A DNA stretch of 64,000 bases from an uncultured Candidatus Saccharibacteria bacterium. GTDB taxonomy: Bacteria; Patescibacteriota; Minisyncoccia; Phycocordibacterales; Phycocordibacteraceae. The notes below the pieces were generated by a model. That model was not told the DNA's origin. It saw only the letters and a program-made list of their open reading frames with translations, and did not search any database. The position numbers and the translations under genes were made by a program. This document shows, piece by piece, positions 54,078-57,071 of the stretch. Each line of letters begins with the position of its first letter. Position 1 is the first letter of the stretch. The stretch spans positions 418,064 to 482,063 of the forward strand of contig CAYMNZ010000001.1 of NCBI GenBank assembly GCA_964391975.1, in the 5' to 3' direction.

Positions 54078-54767
54078 CTACCAACCCTTCTTCTTGAGCC
54101 CGTTCCCAGCAGCATCCTGCTCCGCCTCTTGCTTGCTCTTCCCTTTCCCGCGTGCAACTTCCTCGTCTTTCACAAAGACGGCGACGGTGAAATGACGGTC
54201 GTGGTCAGGCCCCGTCTCATCAATGGTCTTGTAATGCGGGGTGGTTCCCTCCTTCTCCTGGGAAGCTTCTTGGAACTTGCTTTTGGCGTCCTGGTACGAG
54301 CGCTTCTCAAGCACGCTGTCGAGCTTCGGATAGAGGTGCTTCTCAAGGAACGTAACCGCGGTGTCGTAGCCCTGGTCCAAATACAAAGCACCGAGCAATG
54401 CCTCAAACGCATTGGCAAGAATAATCTGGCGTGCGCGTCCCGTATCGCGCTTCTCCCCTTTCGACAGAAGCAGCATGTCGTTCATACCAAGGCGCTCGGC
54501 AACCTCGGCAATCGAATAGGTGTTCACCAAAGCCGCGCGGTAGGCAGTGAGGTCGCCCTCTGGTTTCTGTGGGAACTTGTCATAGAGCATGCGCGTAGTC
54601 GCGAGCTCAAGCACCGCGTCACCAAGAAACTCAAGGCGCTCGTTGTGCGCTTTCGAACTCCGGTTTTCATTCAAATAGGAGCGGTGCGTCAACGCCTCCT
54701 CGAGGAGCTCGAGGTCTTTGAAGGTGAGCCCGAGCTTTTGGGCGGCTTCCGTGAAGTCCATACGCAA
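54078..54767 (-). CDS. rnc: Ribonuclease III
   Basis: Signature ERLEFLGDAVLEL and a C-terminal dsRBD. Confidence 0.92.
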   Translation of the reverse strand: MRMDFTEAAQKLGLTFKDLELLEEALTHRSYLNENRSSKAHNERLEFLGDAVLELATTRMLYDKFPQKPEGDLTAYRAALVNTYSIAEVAERLGMNDMLLLSKGEKRDTGRARQIILANAFEALLGALYLDQGYDTAVTFLEKHLYPKLDSVLEKRSYQDAKSKFQEASQEKEGTTPHYKTIDETGPDHDRHFTVAVFVKDEEVARGKGKSKQEAEQDAAGNGLKKKGW

Positions 54768-54823: not shown

Positions 54824-55297
54824 CTACCTTAACTGACGGATATCCTCTAAATCGACTTCTCTTCCCAGTTTCGTCTTATAGGCGATGAGCGGCTCTTTTC
54901 TTAGAACCGGCACCATCAATCCTTCAAATTGTTTCGGTTCGAAATCCATGTCGGATGGTTGAAGCGTCCTTTCCCCTGTCTTTGAGATTATGTACACCTC
55001 TTCTACCTGATTAATGTCGATAGGCACACCGTCTATCTCTAACTTCATTATCCAAATATCGAACTGATCGTCAGGACCTTCCATATCGTTGTTCCAGTCT
55101 TCAGTTATGTAGTCTTCGAAGAGTGAGCGCACCGTTTCTACATCTCTTTTATGTATCTCCAGGTCAATATCGTAGAGAGAGCGATTAACACCATGAATAA
55201 TTGCAGCGAGTCCACCACTTACCTGAAACTCAATATTGTTCTTCTGTAACGTCTCAACGAGACGTTCGAGTACTTCCTTCTGGATTTCCGTTAGCAT
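54824..55297 (-). CDS. Small nucleotidyltransferase (Pol-beta superfamily; ANT(2'')/Lnu-like minimal NTase); markedly low GC
   Basis: GGLAAIIHGVNRSLYDIDLEI aligns with the GG..(x)..R..DIDL pattern of small antibiotic/substrate nucleotidyltransferases. I estimate gene GC at about 42% versus about 58% for the window. Confidence 0.6.
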   Translation of the reverse strand: MLTEIQKEVLERLVETLQKNNIEFQVSGGLAAIIHGVNRSLYDIDLEIHKRDVETVRSLFEDYITEDWNNDMEGPDDQFDIWIMKLEIDGVPIDINQVEEVYIISKTGERTLQPSDMDFEPKQFEGLMVPVLRKEPLIAYKTKLGREVDLEDIRQLR

Positions 55298-55342: not shown

Positions 55343-56242
55343 TTACTTCCCCGCCTTATCCAGCAGTTTCTGCACGGCAGCCGTCACAATAGGAAGCATG
55401 TCGTCGTAGAAGTTGAGCGCCCGGATATCTGGAAGCCTGAACCAGCGCGCATCATCAAGTCCCCCGCTCTGCTTGAGGTTGAGCTTCGCAAACTCTGCCT
55501 TCACAAGGAAGAAATAGACGTGCTTGCGAACCTTTCCCTTCTCGGGGTGTGAAGCGATGTACTCGTTCTCACCCACCATGTCTTCAATTGTTCCTTCAAG
55601 ACCAAGCTCTTCCTTCACCACACGAGCAACACCCTCCTCGGGAGTGGCGTCGTTCTCGATGTGCCCTTTAGAGAGCGTCCAGCGCCCGAAGACGTCATGG
55701 ACAAGCGCGACATAGTACTGAGTCTCATGCACCGCGTACACGATGGCGCCACCAAGCTTTTCCATTGGAAGCGTGCTGACATCCACGCGCTCCTTCTTCT
55801 TGCTGGTGTCTTCCTTGCCCGGCTCTCCCATCTCTTTGTAGACAGCGCCCAGCACTCCGTTGATGAAGCGTCCGGAAGAATCTCCGCCGAAAATCTTAGC
55901 GAGTTCAATCGCTTCGTTAATCGCAACCTTCGGCGGCACCTGCGCACGGTCAGCAAAAAGAAGCTCGTAGAGACCAAGTCTCAATATGTTGCGGTCTATC
56001 GGCGCGATGCGGTCGATGGGCCAGTCTGGTGCGGCTTTCTGTATGACAAGGTCGAGGTCATCGCGCTTGGCGAGTACACCCTCAAGGAGAGATTCCATAA
56101 ACTGGCCTTCCGTGTCGTCCCCGCCGAACTCGCGAGTGTTGCGGGCAAGGATGTCGGTGACGTCAGCATCGGCAACGTTGGCCGTATCCCACTCGAAGAG
56201 GGTCTGAAGGACGAGCGAACGCGCGAGATGCCGATTAGCCAT
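55343..56242 (-). CDS. nusB: Fusion protein: N-terminal NusB-family (transcription antitermination) domain plus C-terminal Nudix hydrolase domain
   Basis: The NusB core (ARSLVLQTLFEWD..., RIAPIDRNILRLGLYELLF...PPKVAINEAIELAKIFGGDSSGRFINGVLGAV) continues in the same ORF into a Nudix box GHIENDATPEEGVARVVKEELGLEG. Confidence 0.75.
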   Translation of the reverse strand: MANRHLARSLVLQTLFEWDTANVADADVTDILARNTREFGGDDTEGQFMESLLEGVLAKRDDLDLVIQKAAPDWPIDRIAPIDRNILRLGLYELLFADRAQVPPKVAINEAIELAKIFGGDSSGRFINGVLGAVYKEMGEPGKEDTSKKKERVDVSTLPMEKLGGAIVYAVHETQYYVALVHDVFGRWTLSKGHIENDATPEEGVARVVKEELGLEGTIEDMVGENEYIASHPEKGKVRKHVYFFLVKAEFAKLNLKQSGGLDDARWFRLPDIRALNFYDDMLPIVTAAVQKLLDKAGK

Positions 56243-56286: not shown

Positions 56287-56691
56287 CTAGCCCTCCTTGG
56301 GCTTGCCGTACTCAGTACCGATAATTGCGCGTATCCGCTTAAGCAACGCGAACACTTCCTTTCCAGTCTGGTACGCTTCCGTCGCATATCCTTTAGCGAC
56401 AAGCTGCTCAACCGCTTCCTCATAGGAACCGAAAAGAAGTTCTTCATACGTATCGAGGCCCGTAAGATTCCCGATAAGAAGTAGGCTCTTATATTTGCGA
56501 CCAAGGCGGTCTTTTACTTTTCCGATGTGGTTTGCATGCTGAAGCGCACCACTCTCCTGCCGCAGGTCCGCCTCTCGTAGTTGTACACCGAGCTGTTCGA
56601 GCTCCTCTTCAGCTCGGTCCACATACGCGGTGTGATCACGCATCATCTGCTCGATGCTTTCATGCCTCCTTCCTTCCGCGTCCATAGTCAA
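56287..56691 (-). CDS. Hypothetical protein (134 aa)
   Basis: ORF with a good start context; no motif. Confidence 0.45.
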   Translation of the reverse strand: MTMDAEGRRHESIEQMMRDHTAYVDRAEEELEQLGVQLREADLRQESGALQHANHIGKVKDRLGRKYKSLLLIGNLTGLDTYEELLFGSYEEAVEQLVAKGYATEAYQTGKEVFALLKRIRAIIGTEYGKPKEG

Positions 56692-56732: not shown

Positions 56733-57071
56733 TTACACTCCTCCTCCCATTCCTGAGCGGGCTTTCGCCTTGCCCTTGGTCATACGACCGAGGAGTCCGG
56801 TCTTCTTCTCCTTTGGCTTCTCCTCCTTCTCGAGGTGGACGTGGCCTTCTGCAGGACCAACAGCATCTGCCTTGGCGTAGTCCTTCTTCTCCTTCTTTAC
56901 CTTCGGAGGGGCGATAAGCTTTCCGCGGTACATACCAGTCTTCTCATCAAGGCGGTGTGGCAGGCGGAGGTTGCCCGTCTCCTTGTCGGTGAGAATCTTC
57001 TTGTTCTTGAGGGCATGATGACTCCTACGATTCTTCGTATGGGAGCTCGTGTGGCGCATCCGTATAGACAT
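56733..57071 (-). CDS. rpmF: 50S ribosomal protein L32 with a Lys-rich C-terminal extension (112 aa)
   Basis: N-terminal MRHTSSHTKNRRSHHALK matches the L32 core; about 55 extra residues rich in K/E. Confidence 0.75.
   Translation of the reverse strand: MSIRMRHTSSHTKNRRSHHALKNKKILTDKETGNLRLPHRLDEKTGMYRGKLIAPPKVKKEKKDYAKADAVGPAEGHVHLEKEEKPKEKKTGLLGRMTKGKAKARSGMGGGV

What the first reader, a model, noticed from the sequence alone, without database searches (positions are those of the whole stretch)
55343..56242. NusB antitermination domain fused to a Nudix hydrolase in one ORF
Residues 1 to about 145 carry the conserved NusB core (ARSLVLQTLFEWD; RIAPIDRNILRLGLYELLF; FGGDSSGRFINGVLGAV). The same reading frame continues without a stop into a canonical Nudix box (GHIENDATPEEGVARVVKEELGLEG) and about 150 more residues. 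NusB is normally a stand-alone 130-150-aa protein that binds boxA RNA with NusE. Nudix enzymes of this size include the RNA 5'-pyrophosphohydrolase RppH and NTP/NDP-sugar hydrolases. A covalent fusion would tether a (d)NTP or RNA-cap pyrophosphatase activity to the rRNA antitermination complex or to nascent transcripts. I do not recognise this architecture as described. It lies next to a low-GC nucleotidyltransferase gene.
Basis: partly seen in the sequence, partly recalled or inferred. Interest (0 to 1): 0.68.

Follow-up and report, generated by a model that had tools for sequence, protein, structure and literature searches.

The report
NusB fused to a crippled Nudix domain
This is a real gene, conserved across a whole lineage of ultra-small (Paceibacteria/CPR) bacteria, that joins the rRNA antitermination factor NusB to an Ap4A-hydrolase-type Nudix domain; here that domain has lost key catalytic residues but kept its nucleotide-binding pocket, so it probably binds a nucleotide and does not cleave it.

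Summary
The ORF is real: minus strand, 55343-56242, 299 aa, with NusB at residues 1-137, a disordered linker, and a Nudix fold at 165-299. It is not an assembly artefact. All 120 best database hits carry both domains, and so do all 80 species-representative loci inspected, out of at least 582 matches in Paceibacteria-type genomes. The gene sits in a conserved rpmF(L32)-nusB::nudix-rnc operon.

The "canonical Nudix box" claim is wrong. Against Gx5Ex7REUxEExGU, this protein has A199 and V208 in place of two of the four glutamates, including the Mg-coordinating "RE" Glu. That pattern is fixed in its clade.

The Nudix half belongs to the Ap4A/Ap6A-hydrolase clade. Across 118 fusions the adenine-stacking pair (Y228, Y279) and the phosphate-binding lysines (K192, K240) are nearly invariant. 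The RE Glu survives in only 36 of 118, with at least 16 state changes on the tree. The domain is nevertheless under strong purifying selection (dN/dS about 0.015-0.02, the same as NusB).

Best reading: a NusB with a tethered module that binds an adenine nucleotide or an RNA 5' end but hydrolyses it poorly or not at all, much like the Nudix domain of TRPM2 or CFIm25. Sister lineages with intact boxes may still be enzymes. I found no description of this architecture in the literature. The neighbouring nucleotidyltransferase gene is an unrelated insertion.

The parts
55343..56242 (-). nusB::nudix fusion ORF, 299 aa plus stop codon
   Evidence: ORF list and sequence; both Pfam domains in one frame; full-length homologues at 75-96% identity
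55832..56242 (-). NusB domain, residues 1-137
   Evidence: PF01029 E 1.9e-33. TIGR01951 130 bits, above the 88 cutoff. Aligns end to end with solved NusB proteins, E 1e-17. The model superposes on NusB of the NusB-NusE-boxA complex 3r2c, TM 0.89, rmsd 1.8 A.
55751..55831 (-). Inter-domain linker, residues 138-164 (GEPGK...PMEKLG); residues 141-150 predicted disordered
   Evidence: pLDDT 43 for 141-150 and pTM 0.62. The ends of the linker are conserved in the family consensus.
55346..55750 (-). Nudix-fold domain of the Ap4A/Ap6A-hydrolase type, residues 165-299
   Evidence: PF00293 E 1.3e-12. A profile of the fused Nudix halves hits Aquifex Ap4A hydrolase at 7.5e-20, then CT771, Ndx1, human NUDT2 and C. 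elegans Ap4A hydrolase. Foldseek TM 0.85-0.86 to 3i7u and 1vc8. dN/dS 0.015-0.018 against the nearest relatives.
55598..55666 (-). Degenerate Nudix box, residues 193-215, GHIENDATPEEGVARVVKEELGL. A199 replaces the Gx5E Glu and V208 replaces the RE Glu; E211 and E212 are retained.
   Evidence: Alignment to Ndx1. The family alignment and counts show [A/P]..RV[V/I]x[E/D]E fixed in 121 close relatives.
54078..54767 (-). rnc (RNase III), the conserved downstream operon partner
   Evidence: Pfam. It lies downstream on the same strand in 78/80 loci. Its start overlaps or abuts the fusion gene's stop in relatives.
56733..57071 (-). rpmF (ribosomal protein L32, 112 aa with a Lys-rich tail), the conserved upstream partner
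   Evidence: Pfam and NCBIfam. It lies upstream on the same strand in 75/80 loci.

Best explanation
The gene encodes the NusB of a Paceibacteria (Parcubacteria, CPR) bacterium. The N-terminal half is an ordinary NusB. By inference from the family, it pairs with ribosomal protein S10 and binds boxA RNA to build the rRNA antitermination complex. It is co-transcribed with RNase III, which processes pre-rRNA.

A flexible linker of about 27 residues tethers a Nudix domain descended from Ap4A/Ap6A-hydrolase (NUDT2/Ndx1/RppH-like) enzymes. In this organism's clade the catalytic network is broken: the Mg-coordinating Glu of REUxEE is Val, and the Gx5E Glu is Ala or Pro. The adenine-stacking Tyr pair and the phosphate-binding lysines are kept, and the domain is under very strong purifying selection.

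The most likely mechanism is therefore that the Nudix module binds an adenine-containing polyphosphate but hydrolyses it very slowly or not at all. The ligand could be free Ap(n)A or ATP, or the 5'-terminal (p)ppA or Np4A end of the nascent pre-rRNA leader. This would make NusB-dependent antitermination and processing responsive to, or anchored on, that ligand.

Shown here: the architecture, its phyletic spread, the operon, the loss of catalytic residues, the retention of pocket residues, and the purifying selection. Inferred: ligand binding, the identity of the ligand, and any effect on antitermination. Orthologues in sister lineages with an intact box (30 of 118 sampled) are probably still hydrolases, so the family looks like an enzyme-to-reader transition that happened many times.
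For: - Architecture and spread.
- Operon rpmF-nusB::nudix-rnc conserved down to about 30% Nudix identity.
- Box degeneracy. Only 6/38 fusions at the 50%-representative level keep all four Glu, against 21/27 stand-alone relatives.
- Across 118 fusions: RE Glu 36/118 and full box 30/118, with at least 16-18 state changes on the tree. In contrast K192 is 117/118, Y228 114/118 (plus 3 Phe), K240 108/118 (plus 6 Arg), Y279 118/118 and W188 118/118.
- By the alignment these pocket residues correspond to human NUDT2 Lys42, Tyr82, Lys89 and Phe128. PMC4734340 identifies the conserved Tyr plus a Tyr/Phe as the adenine-stacking pair and Lys42/Tyr82 as P1-phosphate ligands.
- Canonical and degenerate fusions differ only at box positions 199 and 208 and a coupled Tyr244 to Phe change. 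The rest of the domain is equally conserved in both.
- Selection: pairwise identity is 0.841 for Nudix and 0.844 for NusB; dN/dS is 0.015-0.018 for Nudix and 0.020-0.033 for NusB.
- Precedents: the RILGEE box inactivates NUDT9, and the E-to-I change in nvNUDT9-H leaves Km within twofold but kcat at about 1% (PMC6461439). The TRPM2 NUDT9-H domain is inactive but binds its ligand (PMC4974056). CFIm25 lacks two box Glu and binds but does not hydrolyse Ap4A, Kd 2.4 uM (PMC2425470). RppH E53A is inactive (PMC6061791).
- Structure model: two confident domains joined by a disordered linker.
Against: - No binding or activity data exist for any member.
- E211 and E212 are retained (family-wide 92/118 and 111/118), and Asp198 sits next to the missing first Glu. 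Part of the metal site therefore survives, and slow catalysis, which a tethered enzyme acting in cis might tolerate, cannot be excluded.
- A quarter of the sampled family keeps a perfect box, so hydrolysis may be the ancestral function and still the main one in those lineages.
- The fused domains are acidic (net -4.8 against -2.8 for stand-alone relatives). This does not favour extensive RNA-backbone binding.
- The flexible linker and pTM of 0.62 give no sign of a fixed interface through which ligand binding could be passed to NusB.
- I could not check whole genomes for a second nusB or for boxA.
Confidence: 0.5

Rival explanations
1. Active tethered hydrolase. Despite the altered box, the Nudix half still hydrolyses a substrate at the antitermination complex. 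It could convert the pre-rRNA 5'-triphosphate or an Np4A cap to a monophosphate as RppH does, or clear Ap(n)A locally. It would use E211/E212, Asp198 and residues outside the box.
For: The Nudix half belongs to the Ap(n)A-hydrolase clade, which also includes BdRppH among its structural neighbours. E211/E212 are almost invariant in the clade. 30/118 family members have a perfect box. The operon with RNase III fits an RNA-processing role. The E-to-I mutant of nvNUDT9-H keeps about 1% of kcat.
Against: The RE Glu is Val or Ile in all 121 close relatives, and the first Glu is almost never present. Equivalent substitutions inactivate NUDT9, TRPM2 NUDT9-H and RppH. The RE Glu shows at least 16 state changes on the tree while pocket residues stay invariant. 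A coupled Tyr244-to-Phe loss accompanies the change. The RppH equivalog scores 17 bits against a cutoff of 118.
Confidence: 0.27
2. Ligand-free structural module. The Nudix fold has been reused purely as a protein-protein or scaffold element of the Paceibacteria antitermination or processing complex. This would parallel the enzyme-fold protein SuhB in the E. coli rrn complex (my own knowledge). No nucleotide would be bound.
For: Catalytic residues are dispensable across the family. Purifying selection is strong on the whole domain surface. The acidic net charge would suit contact with basic ribosomal or RNA-polymerase partners.
Against: The residues that are most invariant family-wide are exactly those that stack adenine and bind phosphate in Ap4A hydrolases. 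A pure scaffold has no obvious need to keep that set in 114-118 of 118 sequences.
Confidence: 0.15
3. Artefact. The fusion results from a mis-assembly, a frameshift or a lost stop codon joining two separate genes.
For: One relative (L090) has an in-frame TAA at the Tyr135 codon, so gene callers report separate NusB and Nudix genes there.
Against: 120/120 best hits and 80/80 species-representative loci have one uninterrupted ORF. The linker sequence is itself conserved. dN/dS is about 0.03-0.045 in the linker. In L090 the frame and the conserved linker continue straight across the single stop, so that is a derived point change or an error in one 2.4-kb contig.
Confidence: 0.01

Closest known systems
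Stand-alone NusB (E. coli, Aquifex, Thermotoga; TIGR01951 / PF01029)
   Same: The N-terminal 137 residues match above the equivalog cutoff. They align end to end with solved NusB proteins and have the same fold as NusB in the NusB-NusE-boxA complex.
   Different: Known NusB proteins are 130-150 aa and have a single domain. This one carries a 160-residue linker plus Nudix extension that is conserved across a whole bacterial class.
Ap4A/Ap6A hydrolases of the Nudix superfamily (Aquifex aq_158 3i7u, Thermus Ndx1 1vc8, Chlamydia CT771, human NUDT2)
   Same: These are the best sequence-profile and fold matches. The adenine-stacking Tyr plus Tyr/Phe pair and the P1-phosphate Lys are conserved.
   Different: Those enzymes have the complete Gx5Ex7REUxEExGU box and are free-standing. 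Here two of the four Glu are replaced, and the domain is fused to NusB.
RppH (RNA 5'-pyrophosphohydrolase)
   Same: Same superfamily. BdRppH is among the structural and sequence neighbours. Its function on RNA 5' ends would fit the transcription context.
   Different: The RppH equivalog scores far below its cutoff (17 against 118 bits). The residue equivalent to the catalytic E53 (E53A is inactive, PMC6061791; that E53 is the RE Glu is my own knowledge) is Val here.
Non-catalytic Nudix ligand-binding domains: TRPM2 NUDT9-H, CFIm25 (NUDT21), NrtR
   Same: In each, a fused or complexed Nudix fold has lost box glutamates but keeps nucleotide binding, and serves regulation or RNA processing. TRPM2 also shows the same active-to-inactive transition within one fusion family.
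   Different: They belong to different Nudix subfamilies (ADP-ribose pyrophosphatase type, or the CFIm25 lineage) and have different partners (an ion channel, CFIm68, a wHTH domain). Ligand binding by the NusB-fused domain is inferred, not shown.
RsmB/Sun (NusB-like N-terminal domain fused to a 16S rRNA m5C methyltransferase)
   Same: This is the one well-known architecture in which a NusB-fold RNA-binding domain sits N-terminal to an enzyme domain acting on rRNA. The NusB half here gives weak sub-cutoff hits to RsmB models.
   Different: The partner there is a SAM methyltransferase, and the RsmB N-domain is a paralogue of NusB, not NusB itself. Here the NusB equivalog model is satisfied.

Membership tests
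NusB (TIGR01951 / PF01029) | Profile match above the curated cutoff over the whole domain | tested here: met
   TIGR01951 130.3 bits against an 88.35 cutoff, residues 4-137. PF01029 116 bits against 23.1.
NusB (TIGR01951 / PF01029) | All-helical NusB fold, superposable on NusB in complex with NusE and boxA | tested here: met
   The AF2 model has seven helices and pLDDT mostly above 90. Foldseek to 3r2c/3r2d gives TM 0.89, rmsd 1.7-1.8 A.
NusB (TIGR01951 / PF01029) | Binds S10 (NusE) and boxA RNA; supports rRNA antitermination | not testable with these tools
   Only inferred, from conservation of the VPxKVAINEAIELAK...F-x-NGVL motif shared with E. coli and Thermotoga NusB.
NusB (TIGR01951 / PF01029) | Single-domain protein of about 130-150 aa | tested here: not met
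   299 aa with an additional C-terminal domain.
Nudix hydrolase superfamily (PF00293) | Nudix alpha/beta/alpha fold | tested here: met
   PF00293 48 bits against a 21.1 cutoff. The model matches Nudix structures at TM 0.75-0.86.
Nudix hydrolase superfamily (PF00293) | Nudix box Gx5Ex7REUxEExGU with all four glutamates | tested here: not met
   Ala199 and Val208 replace the first Glu and the RE Glu. This is fixed in 121 close relatives.
Nudix hydrolase superfamily (PF00293) | Mg/Mn-dependent pyrophosphohydrolase activity | not testable with these tools
Precedents suggest loss or about a 100-fold reduction.
Ap4A hydrolase (NUDT2-like) clade | Closest profile and fold relatives are Ap(n)A hydrolases | tested here: met
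   Profile E-values: 7.5e-20 (3i7u), 3.4e-14 (CT771), 4.5e-14 (Ndx1), 1.7e-11 (NUDT2), 3.5e-10 (C. elegans); fold matches.
Ap4A hydrolase (NUDT2-like) clade | Adenine sandwiched by a conserved Tyr and a Tyr/Phe; Lys binding the P1 phosphate | tested here: met
   Y228, Y279 and K192 align with human Tyr82, Phe128 and Lys42. They are conserved in 114-118 of 118 fusions.
Ap4A hydrolase (NUDT2-like) clade | Catalytic/metal-binding Glu of the RE pair (human E58) | tested here: not met
   Val208 here. It is retained in only 36/118 fusions. By the numbering, E58 is the residue mutated in PDB 4ijx, the 'E58A mutant'.
RppH | Match to the RppH equivalog models, and a catalytic Glu equivalent to E53 | tested here: not met
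   NF001936 scores 17.2 bits against a cutoff of 118. The equivalent position is Val.
Non-catalytic Nudix sensor domains (functional class, not a homology family) | Loss of box glutamates with retained ligand-contact residues and continued purifying selection | tested here: met
Non-catalytic Nudix sensor domains (functional class, not a homology family) | Demonstrated ligand binding without turnover | not testable with these tools
   Requires biochemistry.

The most novel reading that the evidence does not exclude
The fused Nudix module reads Ap4A-type alarmones or the (p)ppA/Np4A 5' end of nascent pre-rRNA, and gates or anchors NusB-dependent rRNA antitermination and RNase III processing in CPR bacteria. 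That would be the first Nus factor that directly senses a nucleotide signal or an RNA 5'-end state. It would have evolved repeatedly from a tethered decapping or Ap(n)A-hydrolysing enzyme.
Probability: 0.2. Interest if true: 0.8.

Novelty: new variant of a known kind. Interest (0 to 1): 0.52.

Why it matters
NusB is a textbook single-domain factor. A class-wide, strongly constrained fusion to an Ap4A-hydrolase-type domain implies that, in a large branch of the bacterial tree with tiny genomes, rRNA transcription and processing is physically coupled to adenine-polyphosphate or RNA 5'-end chemistry. The family also offers a natural series of active-looking and inactive-looking versions of the same fusion. 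That series makes the enzyme-to-reader hypothesis directly testable with a few recombinant proteins. It may also bear on what Ap4A or Np4A caps do in cells. Finally, current annotation ('NusB') hides the second domain.

Tried and rejected
- **Assembly chimera or frameshift.** Rejected. The same ORF appears in 120/120 hits and 80/80 loci.
- **'Canonical Nudix box'.** Rejected.
- **A shift toward a basic, RNA-binding surface in the fused domains.** Not supported. They are more acidic than stand-alone relatives (-4.8 against -2.8, p = 0.016).
- **Pre-fusion gene adjacency in the nearest stand-alone Nudix relatives.** Uninformative. P0163 lies in an integrase/methylase context, and P0164 and P0206 are on contigs under 1 kb.
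- **Natural split versions.** L089 is truncated at a contig edge. L090 has a single in-frame TAA at the Tyr135 codon with the frame and linker continuing, so it is a derived mutation or an error, not an ancestral split.
- **Functional link to the neighbouring nucleotidyltransferase.** Rejected. The gene is low-GC, absent from the 96% and 97% relatives and from all 80 loci, and another relative has a different insert at the same site.
- **A second NusB or Nudix gene in the window.** None found.
- **Searches that failed or found nothing.** The first genome scan with a very diverse alignment failed for lack of a conserved stretch. The afdb50 fold library was unavailable. Rfam and tRNA scans of the window found nothing.
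- **dN/dS for orthologues with internal indels.** Discarded as invalid. Only L001-L003, L006 and L015 were used.

Full report
**Observation**

The ORF lies on the minus strand at 55343-56242 and encodes 299 aa beginning MANRHLARS. Pfam finds NusB at residues 7-136 (E 1.9e-33) and NUDIX at 178-280 (E 1.3e-12) in one frame. The NCBIfam nusB equivalog TIGR01951 scores 130 bits against a cutoff of 88. MutT, RppH and other Nudix equivalogs score far below their cutoffs. So the two-domain observation is correct.

The claim of a canonical Nudix box is not correct. Aligned to Thermus Ndx1 ([23 protein letters not shown]), the window protein reads GHIENDATPEEGVARVVKEELGL. The Glu of Gx5E is Ala199, and the Glu of 'RE' is Val208.

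**Not an artefact, and widespread**

- All 120 best hits in a 5.8-billion-protein collection are about 300 aa, 75-96% identical, carry both Pfam domains and come from many independent assemblies. Where they are named, the name is only 'NusB'.
The best 80 are Paceibacteria-type MAGs: Kaiser-, Lloyd-, Adler- and Campbellbacteria, Parcubacteria, plus many bulk-labelled MAGs.
- In 80/80 of those loci NusB and Nudix are in one ORF. rnc follows on the same strand in 78/80, and rpmF (L32) precedes in 75/80.
- The same L32-fusion-rnc-smc order holds in carriers whose Nudix half is only 31-44% identical, and there the fusion stop overlaps the rnc start.
- An exhaustive HMMER search with the Nudix half alone shows fusion proteins down to about 29% identity. 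Only beyond that do stand-alone 140-aa Nudix proteins appear.

**What the two halves are**

- The NusB half aligns end to end with solved NusB proteins, including chains from antitermination-complex entries (E about 1e-17).
- The AlphaFold model (mean pLDDT 88.7) superposes on NusB from the NusB-NusE-boxA complex at TM 0.89 and 1.8 A.
- The linker is disordered at 141-150 (pLDDT 43) and pTM is 0.62, so the picture is two modules on a tether.
- The Nudix half is closest in fold to Aquifex Ap4A hydrolase (TM 0.85) and Ndx1 Ap6A hydrolase (TM 0.86), followed by CT771 and Rv2985/MutT1.
- A profile of 31 fused Nudix halves hits Aquifex Ap4A hydrolase (7.5e-20), CT771, Ndx1, human NUDT2 (1.7e-11) and C. 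elegans Ap4A hydrolase, ahead of Dcp2.

**The catalytic site erodes while the pocket stays**

In the 121 sequences of the window's clade the box is GHIExD[A/P]xPxxGVxRV[V/I]x[E/D]ELGL. The RE Glu is always Val or Ile. At the 50%-identity representative level only 6/38 fusions keep all four Glu, against 21/27 stand-alone relatives.

Across 118 fusions:

| Residue class | Position | Retained |
|---|---|---|
| Catalytic | First Glu (199) | 64/118 |
| Catalytic | Arg (207) | 97/118 |
| Catalytic | RE Glu (208) | 36/118 |
| Catalytic | Third Glu (211) | 92/118 |
| Catalytic | Fourth Glu (212) | 111/118 |
| Catalytic | Complete box | 30/118 |
| Pocket | W188 | 118/118 |
| Pocket | K192 | 117/118 |
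| Pocket | Y228 | 114/118 (plus 3 Phe) |
| Pocket | K240 | 108/118 (plus 6 Arg) |
| Pocket | Y279 | 118/118 |

- Fitch parsimony on a neighbour-joining tree needs at least 16 state changes for the RE Glu and at least 18 for the complete box.
- By the alignment, K192, Y228, K240 and Y279 correspond to human NUDT2 Lys42, Tyr82, Lys89 and Phe128.
- PMC4734340 states that the adenine ring is stacked by a conserved loop-5 Tyr (human Tyr82) and a Tyr/Phe (human Phe128), and that Lys42 and Tyr82 bind the P1 site.
- Comparing the 30 canonical-box fusions with the 82 that lack the RE Glu, the only strongly conserved positions that change are 199, 208 and a coupled Tyr244-to-Phe. Every other core and pocket position is equally conserved in both groups.

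**Selection**

Within the clade, mean pairwise identity is 0.844 for NusB, 0.841 for Nudix and 0.811 for the linker. Against the nearest relatives, DNA is about 85-88% identical and protein is 96-97% identical. There, dN/dS is 0.020-0.033 for the NusB half and 0.015-0.018 for the Nudix half. Only the gapless comparisons L001-L003, L006 and L015 are valid. The degenerate domain is therefore functional.

**Interpretation**

Published precedents show what losing the RE Glu does:

- An RILGEE box inactivates NUDT9. Human TRPM2 NUDT9-H (RILRQE) is inactive yet binds ADP-ribose. The E-to-I/F-to-L mutant of the sea-anemone domain keeps Km within twofold with kcat at about 1% (PMC6461439, PMC4974056).
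- RppH E53A is catalytically dead (PMC6061791).
- CFIm25 lacks two box Glu and binds but does not hydrolyse Ap4A, Kd 2.4 uM (PMC2425470).

The best-supported reading is that the window protein is a bona fide NusB carrying a tethered module that binds an adenine polyphosphate or an RNA 5' end but hydrolyses it poorly or not at all. Sister lineages with intact boxes probably retain hydrolase activity. Ligand identity and any effect on antitermination are inferences.

Several points weigh against a clean 'dead enzyme' model:

- E211/E212 are retained and Asp198 is adjacent to the missing first Glu.
- A quarter of the family has a canonical box.
- The domain is acidic.
- There is no predicted fixed inter-domain interface.

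These keep the tethered slow-enzyme model and the ligand-free scaffold model alive.

**Novelty**

Full-text searches found nothing describing this architecture. The term combinations tried were NusB+Nudix, NusB+Patescibacteria, Nudix+antitermination, NusB+candidate phyla radiation, and mixed fusion terms. That library covers open-access papers and bioRxiv only. The architecture is visible in precomputed Pfam annotation, so it is unremarked, not hidden. I rate it a new variant of known kinds: NusB, and pseudo-enzyme Nudix domains.

**Context**

The 'low-GC nucleotidyltransferase' (54824-55297) has GC 0.43, against 0.56 for its flanks. The window aligns to its two nearest relatives on both sides of this gene but not across it. 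The 96% relative has 20 bp between the fusion gene and rnc. The 97% relative has a different insert of about 500 bp. No homologue occurs in any of the 80 loci. It is an insertion into the operon and is not a functional partner.

Noticed in passing
window 54824-55297 (-), and the fusion-rnc intergenic site in L001, L006, L010-L012, L019, L029, L039, L041: The nucleotidyltransferase-like gene (weak PF10706 hit; GC 0.43 against 0.56 for the flanks) is an insertion between nusB::nudix and rnc. The 96% relative has only 20 bp there. The 97% relative has a different ~500-bp insert with a hydrophobic ORF. Several other loci have 260-1400 bp at the same spot. This looks like a recurrent insertion site inside a housekeeping operon.
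   Followed up: partly
window 56287-56691 (-): A 134-aa ORF between L32 and the fusion gene has no Pfam or NCBIfam match. It is present as 133 aa in the closest relatives (L001-L003) and absent from distant fusion carriers (L004, L005), so it is a clade-specific operon member of unknown function.
   Followed up: partly
window 56733-57071 (-): Ribosomal protein L32 is 112 aa here, and the Pfam match covers only residues 6-52. The rest is a Lys/Glu-rich C-terminal tail. Distant relatives have L32 of 64-70 aa.
   Followed up: no
protein P0240 (379 aa, from the Nudix-half search): The same Nudix clade (38% identical to the query's Nudix half) is fused to Sigma70_r4 and DnaA-C helix-turn-helix domains, and it also lacks the RE Glu (box ...ALRKTREEIGL). 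This is an NrtR-like layout. It suggests that this Nudix clade has been recruited as a non-catalytic module in transcription proteins more than once.
   Followed up: partly
L090 542-1459 (GCA_013565675.1 contig JACCDV010735530.1): One orthologue has an in-frame TAA exactly at the conserved Tyr135 codon (GAV*KELGEP...), so the gene is called as separate NusB and Nudix genes. It could be a sequencing error, a recent nonsense mutation or a readthrough site.
   Followed up: partly
window 55346-56242 against L006 30-944: Synonymous divergence differs about twofold between the halves of the gene (dS 0.48 for NusB and the linker, 1.0 for Nudix). That could reflect recombination near the domain boundary.
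   Followed up: no
window 1-64000: There is no Rfam family at gathering threshold and no tRNA or tmRNA gene anywhere in the 64 kb. That is unusually RNA-gene-poor for a small genome.
   Followed up: partly
residue 244 of the fusion protein (window 55511-55513): Position 244 is Tyr in 30/30 canonical-box fusions but Phe in half of those lacking the RE Glu. It is probably a hydroxyl that partners the catalytic Glu and is lost together with it.
   Followed up: partly
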